64,000 bases of DNA from Eledone cirrhosa (Eukaryota). How positions within the stretch are numbered: the first letter of the stretch is position 1; each line of letters starts with the position of its first letter. The position numbers and the translations under genes were made by a program. The DNA lies in NCBI GenBank assembly GCA_964016885.1, contig OZ024751.1:52700001-52764000 (forward strand), read 5' to 3'. This document shows, piece by piece, positions 1,749 through 64,000 of this stretch. Below the pieces are notes generated by a model. That model was not told the origin of the DNA. It was given only the letters and a program-made list of their open reading frames with translations, and ran no database searches.

Positions 1749-2354
1749 TGTATATATATATATATATATATATGTATATATATATATATGTATATATATA
1801 TATATGTATATATAGACATATATATATGTATATATATATATATATATATATATATATGTATATATATATATGTATATGTATATATGTATATATATATATA
1901 TATATGTATATATATATATGTATATATGTATATATATATATATATATATATATATATATGTATGTATATATATATATATGTATGTATATATATATATATG
2001 TATATATATATATATATGTATGTATATATATATATGTATGTATATATATATATGTATATATATATATATGTATATATATATATGTATGTATATATATATA
2101 TATGTATATATATATATATATGTGTATGTATATATATATATGTACGTATATATATATATATATATATATATATATATATATGTGTATGTATATATATATA
2201 TGTGTATGTATATATATATATATGTGTATGTATATATATATATGTATGTATATATATATATATGTATATATATATATATGTATATATATATATGTATATA
2301 TATATATATGTATATATATATATGTATATATATATATATGTATCTATATATATA
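1749..2354. repeat. imperfect (TA)n/(TATG)n tract
   Basis: direct reading. Confidence 0.97.
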
Positions 2355-2478
2355 CAGCACTCACTGTAAATGAGGTTGGTGTTAGGAAGGGCATCCAGCT
2401 GTAGAAATCAAGCCAAAAATCAGTTCCCGTCCCACCCTTGCAAGCAGGGAAAAAGCGGACGTAAAATGAAATGATGAT
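2355..2478 (+). mobile_element. RTE 3' tail fragment, apparently chimeric
   Basis: First part matches 14919-14988; second part matches the reverse complement of 27900-27952; ends in a short ATG tail. Confidence 0.75.
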
Positions 2479-2579
2479 ATATATGTATGTATATACATAT
2501 GTATGTATATATATATGTATGTATATATATATGTATGTATATATATATGTATATATATATATATGTATGTATATATATG

Positions 2580-3096
2580 TTTTCTCTTTCTCTTAATTTC
2601 GAGTATATTTTTTTGACCGGCCACCTTTTGGTCCAAGCGGGTTGGTATATAACCCGTAGCTCCAATAATGATGGGTATGAAGCTAAAGGTGTATCTTGGA
2701 TACTGGATTTGTAAACTCCTCATCAATGGTCCGTAGATGTCCTCCTTCTCCTGTATTTTTCTGACAACGTTTACATCAAGTGGGCAGCTGATCTCCACAA
2801 CAGAACACATTTTCAATGTGTGGTCCCAAACAACAATATCAGGCTGGTTGTGCTTTAATTTGGTGGCGGTTTTTATTTTCAGGTTCCACCAGTATTCCTT
2901 AGTGCCATCTGTCTCAATATATTCTTCCTCGTTTGTTGTTAATTTTGTTTTCCGAAGTGCGTTCAGATGGTTCTAGCTATCCCATCGTGTCTCATGGGGA
3001 GGTAGTAACGAGATGACATTCTTTCGCAGCTGGCAACAATGTGGTTTACATCCTCGATCTTTGTTTTACATAGCCTACATTTATTGTCAGCTGCTG
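2580..3096 (-). mobile_element. R2-group (RLE) non-LTR element 3' fragment with internal deletion
   Basis: Near-identical to the reverse complement of 41127-41797; PDIVVWD..VVEISCP; ~155 bp missing near 2627. Confidence 0.88.
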
Positions 3097-3681
3097 TATG
3101 TATGTATATATATATGTATGTATATATATATATATGTATGTATATATATATGTATGTATATATATATATATATATATATATATATGTATGTATATATATA
3201 TATATGTATGTATATATATATATATATATGTATGTATATATATATATATATATGTATATATATATATATATGTATGCGTATATACATACGTATGTGTATA
3301 CATGTATATATGTGTATATATATATATGTATGTGTATATATATATGTATGTATATGTGTGTGTATGTATGTGTATGTGTATGTATATGTATGTATGTATA
3401 TGTATGTATGTATGTATGTATGTATGTATGTATATGTTTATGTATATGTATGTTTGTATATATGTATGTATGTATATATGTGTGTATGTATGTATGTATA
3501 TATTTATGTATGTATGTATATGTATATATATATGTATGTATATATATGTGTATGTATATATATGTATGTATATATATATGTATGTATATGTATGTATGTA
3601 TGTATGTATATATATGTATATATATATGTATGTGTATGTGTGTATGTATGTATGTATGTATGTATGTATGTATGTATGTAT
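3097..3681. repeat. (TATG)n/(TA)n tract
   Basis: direct reading. Confidence 0.97.
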
Positions 3682-59480: not shown

Positions 59481-60192
59481 TGAGAATAAATAAACGTGCT
59501 GCTGGGTTGCTAATGGGTTACATATGAATAAAGTTAGTCCTTCATCAGTGATCTTCCAACCATCATTGGTATTTCATCGCTTTAAAGACCATATACCTCC
59601 GGTTGGTGCGAGGAACGGCTAAAAAATGTCGTTGGGACACGTAAATAAAGGGGACACGAGTGTAAACAAACAAAAATGGTGAAGCAACGAAAGATGAGGA
59701 AGAAGAAGTCAAGTCCCAAATTCCTATGAATTTAAATTCGGTGAAATCGTGAACGAGAGAGAATAAAGACCATCAAACCTGGTTGAAATGTGAGCAAGGA
59801 AGGAATTTCGCACAGGTCTAACGGGAGGAAGAAGGGGTCTAGTCTGTGAATTCGGTAAACATAAGTTCTGTGAAATCGTAGACGAGAGAGAGAAAAAATG
59901 CCGACCGGCATGGCAAAGCGTGCGAAAGGAAAGAATTACGCACAGGTCAAACGGGAAGAAGGGGGAGGAGGAGAGGTAGTAACGGAGAATGAGTGAGTGA
60001 AGGGTGAGGAAGAGGCTAACAGAGAGAGTGACTGCTAGAGAGGGTAAAGATAGAGAGAAAGAGGAAGCAGTAAGAACGAAATAGACGGGTAACAGCAGGG
60101 GAAAAAATATGTGTAAATATGAGAATAAACGTGCTGCTGGGTTGCTAATGGTTTACATATGAATAAAGTTAGTCCTTCATCAGTGATCTTCC
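59481..60192 (-). mobile_element. non-coding element with ~75-bp terminal direct repeats (pLTR/retrozyme-like)
   Basis: 59481-59557 and 60120-60192 are near-identical; the minus strand has CACTGATGAAGG. Confidence 0.55.
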
Positions 60193-60884
60193 ATATATAT
60201 ATATATATATATATATATATATATATATATATATATATATATATGTATATATATATATATGTATATATATATATATGTATATATATATATATATATATAT
60301 ATATATATATATATATATATATATATATATGTATATATATATATATATATATATATATATGTATATATATATATATATATATATATGTATATATATGTAT
60401 ATATATATATATATATGTATATATATATATATATATATATATATTATATATATATATATATATATATATGTATATATATATATATATATATATATATATG
60501 TATATATATATATATATATATATATGTATATATATGTATATATATATATATATATGTATATATATATATATATATATATATATATATATATATATATATA
60601 TATATATACACATATATATGTATATATATATATATATATATATATATATGTATATATATGTATATATATATATATGTATATATATATATATATATATATA
60701 TATATATATATATATATACATATATATATATATATATATATATATATATATATATATACATATATATATATATACATATATATATATATATACATATATA
60801 TATATATATATACATATATATATATATATACATATATATATATATATATACATATATATATATATATATACATATATATATATA

Positions 60885-63044
60885 TAGGAACCAGTAAGAC
60901 CCCGACAGCTGAGCTCAAGCCGTTTCGACGGCTAATTCTGGACTAAATGAAAATTTATCCTGGTATTTAAATAACCGATCTTCTCAAGGGTAATTCCATA
61001 TATGGTCAAAGTGATTGTCAAAAATCAGTAGTAATTCTGTGGTTGCAAATTAGTAGGGGAGATGGTGGCTAAACCTGCCAGTAGGAGAAAGAGGGGAGGG
61101 GGTGGAGTAGACCCAATCAAGCGTTGGTAGTTCCAGCTACAGCTGGGCATGAGGTCAAAGAAGATACAGGGGAGGGGGAGGAGGAGGAAGTCGGAACGGT
61201 AGGTAGAACAATGGGGGGTAGAAATATATAGGAAAGAAAAAATACTAAGAGTGAAGAAAAGCAAATAGGTGTAAAGAAAAAAGTAAAGTAAATTAAATTC
61301 TACGACCTAGGTCTCTAGCTATTGTTAGGCTAGAATAAATAAATAAATAAAGAAAGAAAGAAGTAAAGAAAGAAATAAAAGAAATAACGAAATAAGTAAA
61401 AGAACTAGGTGGGACGGATAGGCAAGGACCCTTTTAAGAGGTATAAGTACGTAAATGATACGGTGACGGGTCAACAAAAGGGGCCAAAATACTAAAGAGA
61501 CTACCACGAAATAAACAATAAAGGTTTCCATCCCGGGCACAATGCCAGCAACCACCCAGTGCAGCAAAGTGAACTAGTACGAGATAATAATTCTGAGTCC
61601 CGAGAAAAATATATACTAATGCTAACTCTAAAAGATCTAAAACAAGCTACATGAAAGTTCGTACGAAGTAAAGGTAGAATACGGAAAAATAAATTCAGAA
61701 TCCACCCGCCCAAAAGAAAAGCGAAGAAAGAAATACTGAACGAAAAAATAAGGCATAAGTGCCACTAAGAAATATAGAGGGCACAGAGAATGGTGGTAGC
61801 GGTCGGGAAAAGGGGACAAGTATCCGGGGTCTAAACCAACTGCTATAAAGGGCGGAGTCCGCCAAATCTATCATAGACTAGGGGGTGGGGGTGGGGGTAC
61901 TAAGGCTACAAGGGGCCAAAGGGCGGCCTCGGGTGGGCGAGAAAAGACGCCGACAAAGGTGAAGAGCTGGTGTAGAAGGACTAAGGAGAGAGGGGGGAAG
62001 GAAATAAAGGAAGCGATAAAAGAATACAAAGAAGATCTTACGTCTCCCCTGGCAAGCAGGGGTTACCCATTGCAAAATCGGCAAGTGGGGTGTTATAGCC
62101 CTAGTCTACCCCCCCCCCCCCCCCGGGTCATTATGGGGTTTGAGGGCGAGGTAAGTCTTAGTGGCACTTATGCCTTATTTTTTCGTTTCAGTATTTCTTT
62201 CTTCGCTTTTCTTTTGGGCGGGGTGGATTCTGAATTTATTTTTCCGTATTCTACCTTTACTTCGTACGAACTTTCATGTAGCTTGTTTTAGATCTTTTAG
62301 AGTTAGCATTAGTATATATTTTTCTCGGGACTCAGAATTATTATCTCGTACTAGTTCACTTTGCTGCACTGGGTGGTTGCTGGCATTGTGCCCGGGATGG
62401 AAACCTTTATTGTTTATTTCGTGGTAGTCTCTTTAGTATTTTGGCCCCTTTTGTTGACCCGTCACCGTATCATTTACGTACTTATACCTCTTAAAAGGGT
62501 CCTTGCCTATCCGTCCCACCTAGTTCTTTTACTTATTTCGTTATTTCTTTATTTCTTTCTTTACTTCTTTCTTTCTTTATTTATTTATTTATTCTAGCCT
62601 AACAATAGCTAGAGACCTAGGTCGTAGAATTTAATTTACTTTACTTTTTTCTTTGCACCTATTTGCTTTTCTTCACTCTCAGTATTTTTTCTTTCCTATA
62701 TATTTCTACCCCCCATTGTTCTACCTACCGTTCCGACTTCCTCCCCCTCCCCCTCCCCTGTATCTTCTTTGACCTCATGTCCAGCTGTAGCTGGAACTAC
62801 CAACGCTTGATTGGGTCTACTCCACCCCCTCCCCTCTTTCTCCTACTGGCAGGTTTAGCCACCATCTCCCCTACTAATTTGCAACCACAGAATTACTACT
62901 GATTTTTGACAATCACTTTGACCATATATGGAATTTACCCCTTGAGAAGATCGGCTATTTAAATACCAGGATAAATTTTCATTTTAGTCCAGAATTAGCC
63001 GTCGAAACGGCTGAGCTCAGCTGTCGGGGTCTTACTGGTCCCTA
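60885..63044. mobile_element. non-coding long inverted-repeat element (arms ~885 bp, spacer ~385 bp)
   Basis: 60885-61770 is the reverse complement of 62156-63044 with few differences; the ORF track is mirrored. Confidence 0.88.
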
Positions 63045-63123
63045 TTACGCACTCTACTACCTCAAGTATTGAGTACTTTTGGTGCGTTATGGTCCACCTG
63101 GTTCCTTACCACATTTCCTTCGT

Positions 63124-64000
63124 TATATATATATACATATATATTATATATTTATATATATATACATATATATATACACATATATATATACATATATATA
63201 TACATATATATATATATATATACATATATATAAACATATATATATATATACACATATACATACATATATAATATATATATATACATATATATAAACATAT
63301 ATATATATACACATACATACACATATATATATATATATATATATATATATATATATATATATATATATATATATATATATATATATATATGTATGTATGC
63401 ATATATATATATATATATGTTTATATATATGTATATATATATATATATGTATGTATGTATATGTGTATATATATATATATATATGTTTATATATATGTAT
63501 ATATATATATATATATGTATATATATATGTATATATATATGTATATATATATATGTATATATATATGTGTGTATATATATGTATATATATATAAATATAT
63601 ATATATATATATATGTATATATATATGTATATATATATGTATATATATATATGTATATATATATATGTATATATATATATGTATATATGTATATATATAT
63701 ATATGTGTATATATATATATGTATATATATATGTATATATATATATGTGTATATATATATATGTATATATATATGTATATATATATATATATATATATAT
63801 ATAAATATATACATATATATATGTATATATATATATATATGTATATATATATATATGTATATATATATGTATATATATATGTATATATATATATGTATAT
63901 ATATATATATATATATGTATATATATATATATATGTATATATATATGTATATATATATGTATATGTATATATATATATATATGTATATATATATATATAT
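63124..64000. repeat. (TA)n tract running to window end
   Basis: direct reading. Confidence 0.97.

What the first reader, a model, noticed from the sequence alone, without database searches (positions are those of the whole stretch)
1749..64000. TA-microsatellite-spaced library of fragments from more than 10 unrelated retroelement families (candidate retroelement trap / small-RNA cluster)
Seen: more than 35 pieces of RTE (6 or more families), CR1-like, R2-group RLE and Penelope-like elements. Most are bounded by (TA)n/(TATG)n tracts rather than nested in each other, and both orientations occur. Multi-copy families are near-identical between copies but have different breakpoints, which points to independent recent insertions. 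Established: these groups use three unrelated nucleases (APE, PD-(D/E)xK, GIY-YIG); microsatellite targeting is known family by family (e.g. Dong, Mino, many PLEs). Inference: convergence of all of them on one substrate suggests a nuclease-independent entry route, such as nicks or breaks at TA cruciforms. The locus would then be a self-enlarging archive of active TEs, possibly a piRNA/siRNA source.
Basis: partly seen in the sequence, partly recalled or inferred. Interest (0 to 1): 0.8.

Follow-up and report, generated by a model that had tools for sequence, protein, structure and literature searches.

The report
Retrotransposons piling into self-growing TA repeats
About 40 pieces of some 20 jumping-gene families sit end to end inside long TA repeats, likely because each family's own cutting enzyme favours such repeats, and four insertions carry extra inverted copies of the repeat, which would enlarge the landing site; a special trap or small-RNA role is not shown.

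Summary
I count 40 pieces of about 22 families (RTE, CR1, R4/Dong-like, Penelope-like) in two arrays. TA tracts are 35% of the window, and 25 of 25 independently defined 3' ends abut one. A nuclease-independent route is not supported. Only 2 of 31 pieces with a scored 3' end lack it, each family has its own junction, and orientation is fixed within all six multi-copy families. TA or AT-microsatellite targeting is published for the Hydra and Neptune Penelope clades, R4/Dong and RTE. Reads from two individuals show that the commonest family, a 605-bp non-coding element, has (TATG)n 5' flanks at other loci too, so its preference is genome-wide. The tracts are strand-polar (TATG 1391, CATA 288). 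Three junctions carry inverted copies of their own flanking tract (about 421, 284 and 227 bp), and one twin-primed-like insertion carries a 782-bp tract. Together that is about 8% of tract DNA, so self-enlargement is partly shown. A small-RNA role could not be tested: no RNA run and no genome were available. Verdict: known safe-haven targeting in an unusually stacked form, with a modestly new target-amplifying feedback.

The parts
1748..35327 (.). Array 1: TG-polar (TA)n tracts (13.9 kb) with 25 retroelement pieces
42973..64000 (.). Array 2 (open at window end): TG-polar tracts (7.6 kb) with 10 pieces and three tract fold-backs
35328..42972 (.). Spacer of ordinary host-like DNA with short tracts, SINE-like and MITE-like repeats, and 5 retroelement pieces
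   Evidence: SINE/MITE labels recalled, not tested
2357..2476 (+). RTE-F, 3' UTR piece ending in a short (GAT) tail
2581..3094 (-). RLE1 copy a (R4/Dong-like), 3' end, about 150-bp internal deletion
3684..4127 (+). E605 copy e1, 5'-truncated
4813..7799 (-). RTE-A copy a: APE part, RT, PHD finger, (GAT)n tail, one frame break
8403..8625 (-). Penelope-like terminal piece pA1 with hammerhead core
9609..9916 (-). Penelope-like terminal piece pA2 (shares 115 bp with pA1)
10073..12451 (+). RTE-B (BovB-like by recalled motifs), truncated at both ends
12550..15102 (+). RTE-C: RT, PHD, (GAT)n tail; about 75% nt identity to RTE-A
15524..17322 (-). PLE1, Hydra-clade-like Penelope element (CxCx5C linker, GIY-YIG), 16-bp target duplication
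17920..18225 (-). CR1-c 3' end
   Evidence: weak tblastx to CR1-a, E 5e-4
20664..20851 (-). Penelope-like terminal piece pB with hammerhead-like core
20923..21377 (+). Penelope-like terminal piece pC: 52-bp palindrome plus hammerhead core (fold z -3.5)
21682..24101 (+). RTE-D copy a: APE part, RT, (TAGA)n tail
24347..24421 (+). CR1-a 75-bp 3' end
24487..26162 (.). Twin-priming-like E605 composite: inverted [element 311-605, 782-bp tract, element 1-204] followed by element 208-605
26892..27159 (+). RTE-D copy b, 3' end
27421..27827 (+). E605 copy e5
27881..28272 (-). RTE-E 3' end, (GAT)n tail; 57% aa identity to RTE-A
28315..28803 (-). RLE1 copy b
28950..29931 (-). RTE-A copy b
31643..31794 (.). 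Fold-back piece similar to the PLE2 end (84%)
32703..33307 (+). E605 copy e6, full length
34185..34787 (+). E605 copy e7, full length
35328..35524 (-). Piece similar to the PLE2 end (83% over 66 bp)
39742..40140 (+). E605 copy e8, in a short tract
40954..41796 (+). RLE1 copy c: CCHC finger and restriction-like nuclease motif, between (CATA)n runs
41837..42510 (+). RLE2, older R4/Dong-like piece (46% aa identity to RLE1)
43566..43783 (-). RTE-A copy c (3' UTR), joined at its 5' end to CR1-b
43784..44117 (-). CR1-b internal APE fragment, no 3' end
44080..45007 (.). Fold-back at the CR1-a 5' junction: 38 bp unique plus about 430 bp tract, duplicated in inverted orientation
45008..48299 (+). CR1-a: APE, RT, short tandem tail
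49504..49787 (-). Exact 284-bp inverted copy of right-flank tract 55367-55650
49916..55175 (.). PLE2, Neptune-like Penelope element (51781-55175 +) with inverted 5'-truncated copy and about 60-nt extension (49916-51780 -)
56937..57541 (+). E605 copy e9, full length, used for read laying
58712..59402 (.). Unassigned non-coding insert with 68-bp direct repeats (85%)
59483..60191 (-). Non-coding insert with 68-bp direct repeats (98.5%) and a partial hammerhead core; probable Penelope derivative
60887..63123 (.). Non-coding insert with 889-bp inverted arms; probable Penelope derivative
63124..63600 (.). Tract fold-back (about 227 bp per arm) at the right junction of the 60887 element

Best explanation
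Two long strand-polar (TA)n/TATG tracts hold 35 of the 40 stacked retroelement pieces, most likely because each family inserted by its own endonuclease and target-primed reverse transcription into a shared TA-rich safe haven, and some insertions likely enlarged the tract as they went in. Shown: 3' ends abut tracts, each family has its own junction register and a fixed orientation, tracts on both sides of an insert share local variants, three junctions carry inverted copies of their own flank, and one insertion carries a 782-bp inverted tract. Inferred: each array began as one microsatellite that was split repeatedly. Because (TA)n is self-complementary, the free target end can snap back or re-anneal to a same-strand TA run and copy the flank before joining the cDNA. 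Read-through RNA can carry a tract to a new site (twin priming). Slippage supplies the rest. More tract then means more target, a positive feedback that needs no shared nuclease-free route.
For: 25 of 25 independently defined 3' ends abut a tract; only 2 of 31 pieces with a scored 3' end lack it. Family-specific junctions: RLE1 3 of 3 end directly before CATA in C-polar orientation; E605 8 of 8 3' ends run into G-polar tract; RTE-A/C/E/F tails overlap the tract by AT. Orientation concordant in 6 of 6 multi-copy families, p about 1e-4 if independent. 16-bp duplication around PLE1. PLE1 has the Hydra linker, and almost all Hydra families insert into (TA)n; Neptune and Naiad show microsatellite bias (PMC8557442). 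R4/Dong insert into rDNA or microsatellites (PMC7998251). RTE endonuclease cuts at TA in a Tn-TA signature (PMC13295347). RTE, Dong-R4, CR1 and Penelope are the main recently active retroelement groups in an octopus genome (PMC13282606 Table 1). E605 takes 103,665 of 12.47 M and 107,229 of 12.79 M RAD reads, and at a truncation point absent from the window (56983) the loose-end consensus is (TATG)n in both runs (656 and 773 reads, agreement 0.75 and 0.76). Adjacent tracts share interruption dialect (cosine 0.74 vs 0.63, p 0.001); TGAA flanks both sides of CR1-a and TTTG both sides of e9. Fold-backs: CR1-a score 31 vs shuffle max 14; 63124 score 10, p 0.004; PLE2 284 of 284 identical. The E605 composite has a 3-nt gap at the inversion point and 2-3 nt microhomologies, as described for L1 twin priming (PMC11702581).
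Against: Genome-wide adjacency was tested for one family only, at 5' ends only (the tool skipped the repeat at the 3' end). It rests on perhaps 20-30 loci, since single-start joints show 50-200 reads each. One of the matched clusters (57134) gave (TATG)n in one run but a mixed A/T consensus in the other, and 1,174 loose-end rows were not shown. The same 55-nt RTE 3' end and (GAT)n tail in another organism is followed by a TA tract in 0 of 3 loci, and SR3 is described as only AT-rich-preferring (PMC1291365), so strict TA targeting is not intrinsic to all RTEs. I found no published TA preference for CR1. Target duplications were above the null at few junctions. Three of six polarity switches tested did not match a flank (e8 p 0.36; 60887 left p 1.0; PLE2 vs upstream p 0.38). 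Shown duplications explain only about 1.7 of 22.4 kb of tract. E605 copies e6, e7 and e9 share an allele seen in 6% of reads, so some copies may not be independent.
Confidence: 0.65

Rival explanations
1. Nuclease-independent capture: TA cruciforms are nicked or broken by host enzymes, and any retroelement RNA or cDNA is copied into the break.
For: Three unrelated nuclease types share one substrate. Fold-backs show TA ends behaving as free self-priming ends. Two pieces lack 3' ends, and RTE-B joins the tract through a short microhomology. A related RTE tail elsewhere is not TA-flanked, 0 of 3. TA repeats are known break sites (PMC9890227 and PMC13738482, search listings only).
Against: Break capture on a palindromic repeat should be blind to orientation and family. 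Here orientation and register are family-specific, 29 of 31 scored pieces keep the 3' end, PLE1 has a target duplication, and I recognised no SINE, LTR or DNA-transposon piece inside the arrays (4 pieces remain unassigned or only probable).
Confidence: 0.12
2. The arrays grew mainly by DNA-level copying: unequal exchange, gene conversion or template switching between TA tracts moved already inserted fragments and kept their orientation.
For: Orientation concordance would follow; e6, e7 and e9 share a minor allele and e3 is 99.7% alike to e9; local inverted duplications exist.
Against: Copies share 3' ends but differ in 5' ends, carry private substitutions, and no two separate inserts share flanking tract patterns: the all-against-all tract comparison gave one strong match, the PLE2 inversion. 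Most families are single copies.
Confidence: 0.12
3. Assembly artefact: repeats from different loci were joined through TA tracts, or fold-back reads were built in.
For: One-base homopolymer gaps (7 in the 60887 arms) and frame breaks in young elements suggest residual read errors. No read spanning a junction was seen; no genome is held. The PLE2 arms have no substitutions.
Against: Tract polarity is constant over 33 kb and dialects continue across inserts, which random joining would not give. The CR1-a fold-back arms differ by whole repeat units, and the PLE2 arms differ by a 5-nt indel and a one-sided extension, the published Penelope architecture. Inverted E605 joints recur in two individuals at other loci.
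Confidence: 0.06
4. Tail seeding: elements inserted without TA preference, and the tracts grew afterwards from their own tails.
For: RTE tails seed microsatellites (PMC9115989 passage); the E605 3' end always runs into tract.
Against: 22 of 29 5' ends also abut tract, the tails are (GAT)n, (TAGA)n or a 10-mer rather than TA, and polarity stays the same whichever way the element points.
Confidence: 0.05

Closest known systems
Microsatellite-targeting Penelope-like elements (Hydra, Neptune, Naiad; PMC8557442)
   Same: (TA)n targets, CxCx5C or CX2-5CxxC linker before GIY-YIG, inverted 5'-truncated copy with a one-sided extension, hard-to-see target duplications
   Different: Described family by family. 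In the passages read, no stacking with RTE, CR1 and R4 in one polar tract, and no inverted copy of the flanking tract
R4/Dong non-LTR elements (PMC7998251, PMC3774820)
   Same: RT, CCHC finger and restriction-like nuclease in about 1,150 aa; insertion into a microsatellite in fixed orientation
   Different: The published target is (TAA)n or rDNA; RLE1 sits at (CATA)n in 3 of 3 copies
RTE Tn-TA insertion signature (PMC13295347) and bipartite non-autonomous RTEs (PMC5786205)
   Same: Cleavage at TA, short tandem tails; E605 looks like a 5' part plus a 3' end without an ORF
   Different: The published signature is dispersed with an upstream T run, not long TA tracts; the autonomous partner of E605 was not found
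TA-microsatellite safe havens of plant DNA transposons (MuTAnT, Micron, TAFT; PMC4486113)
   Same: Unrelated families converge on (TA)n as a low-cost target
   Different: Those are cut-and-paste elements; here retroelements with three nuclease types, stacked over tens of kb
L1 twin priming and L1-linked fold-backs (PMC11702581)
   Same: 5' inversion with a 1-10 bp gap and microhomology; fold-back at the reciprocal end
   Different: Here the inverted DNA is the TA target itself, so the by-product is new target
piRNA clusters acting as transposon traps (recalled, e.g. flamenco)
   Same: Dense collection of fragments of active families
   Different: No antisense bias, inserts spaced by tract rather than nested, no RNA evidence

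Membership tests
RTE clade (RTE-A to F) | Single ORF with APE and RT, no ORF1 | tested here: met
   APE frame follows the 5' UTR directly at 3-1265(-); Exo_endo_phos and RVT_1 hits; full-length relatives of about 1,050-1,100 aa carry both
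RTE clade (RTE-A to F) | Short tandem-repeat 3' tail | tested here: met
   (GAT)n in 6 pieces, (TAGA)n in 2; RTE-B has no 3' end
RTE clade (RTE-A to F) | RT groups with reference RTEs in a tree | not tested
   No named reference set was available; clade labels rest on recalled motifs
CR1 clade (CR1-a, b, c) | APE plus RT with CR1-type C-terminal motifs and short tandem tail | tested here: inconclusive
   APE and RT by Pfam, 10-mer tandem tail; CR1 label from recalled motifs, ORF1 not present, no tree
R4/Dong (RLE1) | RT followed by CCHC finger and restriction-like nuclease, single ORF, no N-terminal zinc fingers | tested here: met
   zf-RVT hit; CCHC and PD..E motif by eye; relatives at 55-58% identity are 1,149-1,158 aa with RVT_1 and no N-terminal finger
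R4/Dong (RLE1) | Specific insertion into a microsatellite or rDNA | tested here: met
   3 of 3 copies end directly before CATA, same polarity; target differs from the published (TAA)n
R4/Dong (RLE1) | RT phylogeny within R4 rather than NeSL, HERO or R2 | not tested
   No named references; PDB search gave no relative
Hydra-clade Penelope-like element (PLE1) | CxCx5C linker, C-terminal GIY-YIG without CCHH, CxxC and CxH motifs | tested here: met
   Read by eye from translations across one frame break against PMC8557442 section 11; GIY-YIG weak in Pfam and by features
Hydra-clade Penelope-like element (PLE1) | Canonical hammerhead ribozyme in the terminal repeat | tested here: inconclusive
   No core found in 15524-15920; the copy may be clipped
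Neptune-clade Penelope-like element (PLE2) | CX2-5CxxC linker, CCHH motif, inverted 5'-truncated copy with one-sided extension | tested here: met
   Motifs by eye; 1.8-kb inverted arm with about 60-nt extension, longer than the published 30-40 bp
Bipartite non-autonomous RTE (E605) | No ORF; 3' end of a LINE shared by 5'-truncated copies | tested here: met
   Stops in all six frames, a C2H2-like remnant before a stop, 8 of 8 copies share the 3' end; terminal hairpin z -2.5
Bipartite non-autonomous RTE (E605) | 5' and 3' parts match the UTRs of an autonomous RTE | tested here: inconclusive
   No partner in the window; 4 motifs not found in one supplement of PMC9115989; 5'-UTR likeness is recalled only
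Endonuclease-independent insertion | Loss of the 3' tail, truncation at both ends, no target duplication, no family-specific site | tested here: not met
   2 of 31 scored pieces lack the 3' end; family-specific registers and orientation; one clear duplication
piRNA cluster | Uniquely mapping 24-31-nt RNAs with 1U or ping-pong signature, long precursor | not testable with these tools
   No RNA holder listed
piRNA cluster | Antisense bias of fragments (uni-strand type) | tested here: not met
   19 plus, 17 minus pieces; 20.0 vs 12.0 kb. A dual-strand cluster is not excluded

The most novel reading that the evidence does not exclude
Long (TA)n tracts in this genome are an autocatalytic, multi-clade landing pad. 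Their self-complementarity makes insertion itself copy the target (snap-back at the junction, transduction in read-through RNA), so every hit by any of four retroelement clades makes more target for all. This would drive kilobase TA satellites and retroelement hot spots genome-wide, and the read-through transcripts with long inverted repeats could also feed small-RNA silencing of every active family.
Probability: 0.25. Interest if true: 0.65.

Novelty: new variant of a known kind. Interest (0 to 1): 0.38.

Why it matters
Microsatellite safe havens are known one family at a time. Here the TG interruptions act as a barcode inside the repeat, so one can read insertion orientation, find inverted copies of the target and see a tract carried by an RNA. 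That makes a feedback between insertion and target growth directly countable in a long-read assembly. It could explain transposon hot spots and hard-to-assemble TA satellites in such genomes. It also offers natural intermediates for the poorly understood Penelope integration cycle. The trap and small-RNA claims would matter more, but nothing here shows them.

Tried and rejected
No genome is held, so the genome-wide enrichment test could not be run. No RNA holder was listed; this says nothing about expression. The two runs holding over half the words of 35721-43050 may be the assembly's own sample and were not counted as support; small-share rows were not used. Rfam at gathering score gave 0 matches; the hammerhead cores come from a motif scan, and only 1 of 4 folded better than shuffles. 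An ungapped hairpin scan was swamped by TA runs and was replaced by a token comparison. The anchored target-duplication search was mostly within the null (99th percentile 35 nt). The 782-bp inverted tract matched none of 24 other tracts (best z 2.2). A relative of RLE1 found no loci in metagenomes; the E605 3' motif found none in viral or prokaryote contigs, nor did the RTE tail motif in prokaryote contigs. A TpA-erasing process like earlier finding e1-7550763 was considered and rejected: TpA observed/expected in the elements is 0.52-1.13 and read changes are mostly C>T and G>A. Term searches in PMC12988792 and PMC13738482 returned nothing. Ten literature searches showed no paper on multi-clade TA arrays in cephalopods or on insertion-coupled inverted duplication of a TA target; subscription papers such as Kojima and Fujiwara 2004 were not readable, and 7 of 8 readable supplements of PMC9115989 were not searched.

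Full report
What is there. TA/TATG tracts cover 22,391 of 64,000 bp in 49 blocks. They form array 1 (1748-35327, 42% tract) and array 2 (42973 to the window end, 36%), separated by a 7.6-kb spacer with 11% tract. Self-BLAST, translation and Pfam give 40 pieces in 22 groups within 1749-64000. Nine are coding RTE pieces of six families, nine belong to one non-coding family that I call E605, five are CR1-like, four R4/Dong-like, nine Penelope-like, three probably Penelope-derived and one is unassigned. Clade labels rest on domain order and on motifs, partly recalled; no tree with named references could be built. SINE-like repeats in the spacer resemble octopus repeats as I recall them, and the family mix matches the recently active retroelement groups listed for Octopus vulgaris (PMC13282606, first two of three parts read), so an octopod is my guess.

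Adjacency is real. All 29 of 29 3' ends scored as intact abut a tract, as do 22 of their 29 5' ends. For 25 of the 3' ends the boundary comes from a shared end in several copies or from a tandem tail, not from my mask. A random 20-mer is tract-like 35% of the time. Two pieces have no 3' end: RTE-B and CR1-b. Strands are mixed (19 plus, 17 minus, 4 undetermined).

The tracts are polar. TATG occurs 1,391 times and CATA 288 times on the plus strand. Of 30 tracts of 90 nt or more, 22 are G-polar, 2 C-polar and 6 mixed. Adjacent tracts share their interruption pattern more than distant ones (cosine 0.74 vs 0.63, permutation p 0.001); the rare TGAA variant lies on both sides of CR1-a and TTTG on both sides of E605 copy e9. 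I infer that each array is one microsatellite split many times by insertion, not a set of element tails.

The junctions look endonuclease-made. RLE1 ends directly before CATA in 3 of 3 copies, always C-polar. E605 ends at the same base in 8 of 8 copies and runs into G-polar tract. The RTE-A group overlaps the tract through its (GAT)n tail. Orientation is constant within each of six multi-copy families (7, 3, 3, 2, 2, 2 copies; p about 1e-4 if independent), though it differs between families. PLE1 is flanked by a 16-bp direct duplication that includes a rare CA. Other duplications could not be told from the null. Capture at a break in a palindromic repeat would not predict family-specific strand and register.

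The clades are mostly known TA users. PLE1 has the CxCx5C linker, CxxC and CxH motifs of the Hydra clade, of which almost all families insert into (TA)n (PMC8557442, section 11 read whole). PLE2 has the Neptune linker and the inverted copy with a one-sided extension described there (passages). R4/Dong elements insert into rDNA or microsatellites, usually (TAA)n (PMC7998251, passages; PMC3774820, passages). RTE elements cut at TA (PMC13295347, abstract and two sections). Convergence of unrelated families on (TA)n as a safe haven is published for plant DNA transposons (PMC4486113, passages) and as a general strategy (PMC4640811, passages). I found no such report for CR1.

One family tested outside the window. 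E605 has no ORF, a zinc-finger remnant and a terminal hairpin, and resembles the bipartite non-autonomous RTEs of PMC5786205 (passages); its partner was not found. On copy e9, 103,665 of 12,467,656 and 107,229 of 12,785,554 RAD reads were laid from two individuals, so it is a high-copy family. At position 56983, where no window copy is truncated, the loose-end consensus is (TATG)n in both runs (656 and 773 reads, agreement 0.75 and 0.76), in the same polarity as in the window. At 57134 it is (TATG)n in one run (1,047 reads, 0.57) and mixed A/T in the other (1,033 reads, 0.52). At 56951 it is TATG-like in one and TTTA-like in the other. Limits: single loci give about 50-200 reads, so these clusters stand for perhaps 20-30 loci; 3' flanks were skipped; human-like reads are filtered; 1,174 rows were not shown. 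Against generality, the same 55-nt RTE 3' end in another organism is followed by a TA tract in 0 of 3 loci, and SR3 only prefers AT-rich sites (PMC1291365, passages).

Insertion copies the target. At the 5' junction of CR1-a, 38 unique bases plus about 430 bp of tract are repeated in inverted orientation (token score 31, shuffle maximum 14 in 500). Left of PLE2, 49504-49787 is an exact 284 of 284 inverted copy of 55367-55650 in its right flank. At 63124-63600 a weaker fold-back is seen (p 0.004). Three other comparisons at polarity switches gave no match. At 24487-26162 an inverted block (element 311-605, 782-bp tract, element 1-204) precedes element 208-605, with a 3-nt gap and 2-3 nt microhomologies. 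This is the geometry of twin priming (PMC11702581, passages) and implies an RNA that read through a tract; an inversion plus deletion at DNA level is the alternative. Seven inverted E605 joints are listed in the reads, six of them in both individuals. I infer that a free target end in (TA)n can pair with itself or with a same-strand TA run and copy the flank before joining the cDNA. These four events add about 1.7 kb, 8% of tract DNA; the rest is unexplained by them and is presumably slippage.

Artefact check. Seven one-base homopolymer gaps in the 60887 arms and frame breaks in young elements suggest residual errors, so tract lengths are soft. No spanning read was seen. But constant polarity, dialect continuity, arms that differ by whole repeat units and the published Penelope architecture argue against chimeric joining.

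Small RNA. Untested: no RNA run was listed. A uni-strand antisense cluster is unlikely; a dual-strand source is open, and the long inverted repeats would give double-stranded RNA if transcribed.

Verdict. The nuclease-independent trap is not supported (0.12). Family-wise endonuclease targeting of a shared TA safe haven, with partial insertion-driven growth of the target, is the best reading (0.65). Ten searches showed no paper on stacked multi-clade polar TA arrays or on inverted duplication of the TA target at insertion, but key subscription papers were out of reach. I rate it a new variant of a known kind, interest 0.38.

Noticed in passing
window 32703-33307, 34185-34787, 56937-57541: Three of four full 5' ends of E605 share an allele at element position 11 that is seen in about 6% of reads: a young subfamily or local spread; unexplained.
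   Followed up: partly
window 57134 (E605 position about 198-208): 5'-truncation hot spot: three window copies and the inversion point lie here, and about 1,000 reads per run have loose ends here. It may mark an RNA structure that stalls reverse transcription.
   Followed up: partly
window 40954-41796, 2581-3094, 28315-28803: R4/Dong-like family that appears to target (CATA)n rather than the published (TAA)n; copy a has an internal deletion of about 150 bp.
   Followed up: partly
window 5107-7293 and 13285-14796: RTE ORFs carry a PHD finger after the RT core; many relatives do too.
   Followed up: no
window 58712-59402, 59483-60191, 60887-63123, 40298-40367: Non-coding inserts with terminal direct or inverted repeats; possibly non-autonomous Penelope derivatives (retrozyme-like). 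The 40179-40378 stretch is flanked by a 37-bp direct repeat.
   Followed up: partly
window 35721-39602: Spacer holds several 83-90% alike SINE-like copies (38159-39059) and short palindromic MITE-like ends (near 35721; 37475-37555); neither type was recognised inside the arrays.
   Followed up: no
window 43566-44117: RTE-A 3' UTR joined directly to an internal CR1 APE fragment: a template switch between two element RNAs, or a deletion.
   Followed up: no
window 51781-55175 vs 49916-51780: The two PLE2 arms differ only by a 5-nt indel that breaks the frame in the forward copy.
   Followed up: partly
L001-L003: Three loci of one metagenome share the 55-nt RTE 3' end and (GAT)n tail (84-91% alike) but no coding match and no TA tract; possibly a SINE using a related RTE.
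   Followed up: partly
window 1748-35327 and 42973-64000: Both arrays have the same TG polarity on the plus strand; chance (one in two) or a strand-biased A-to-G process. Not resolved.
   Followed up: partly
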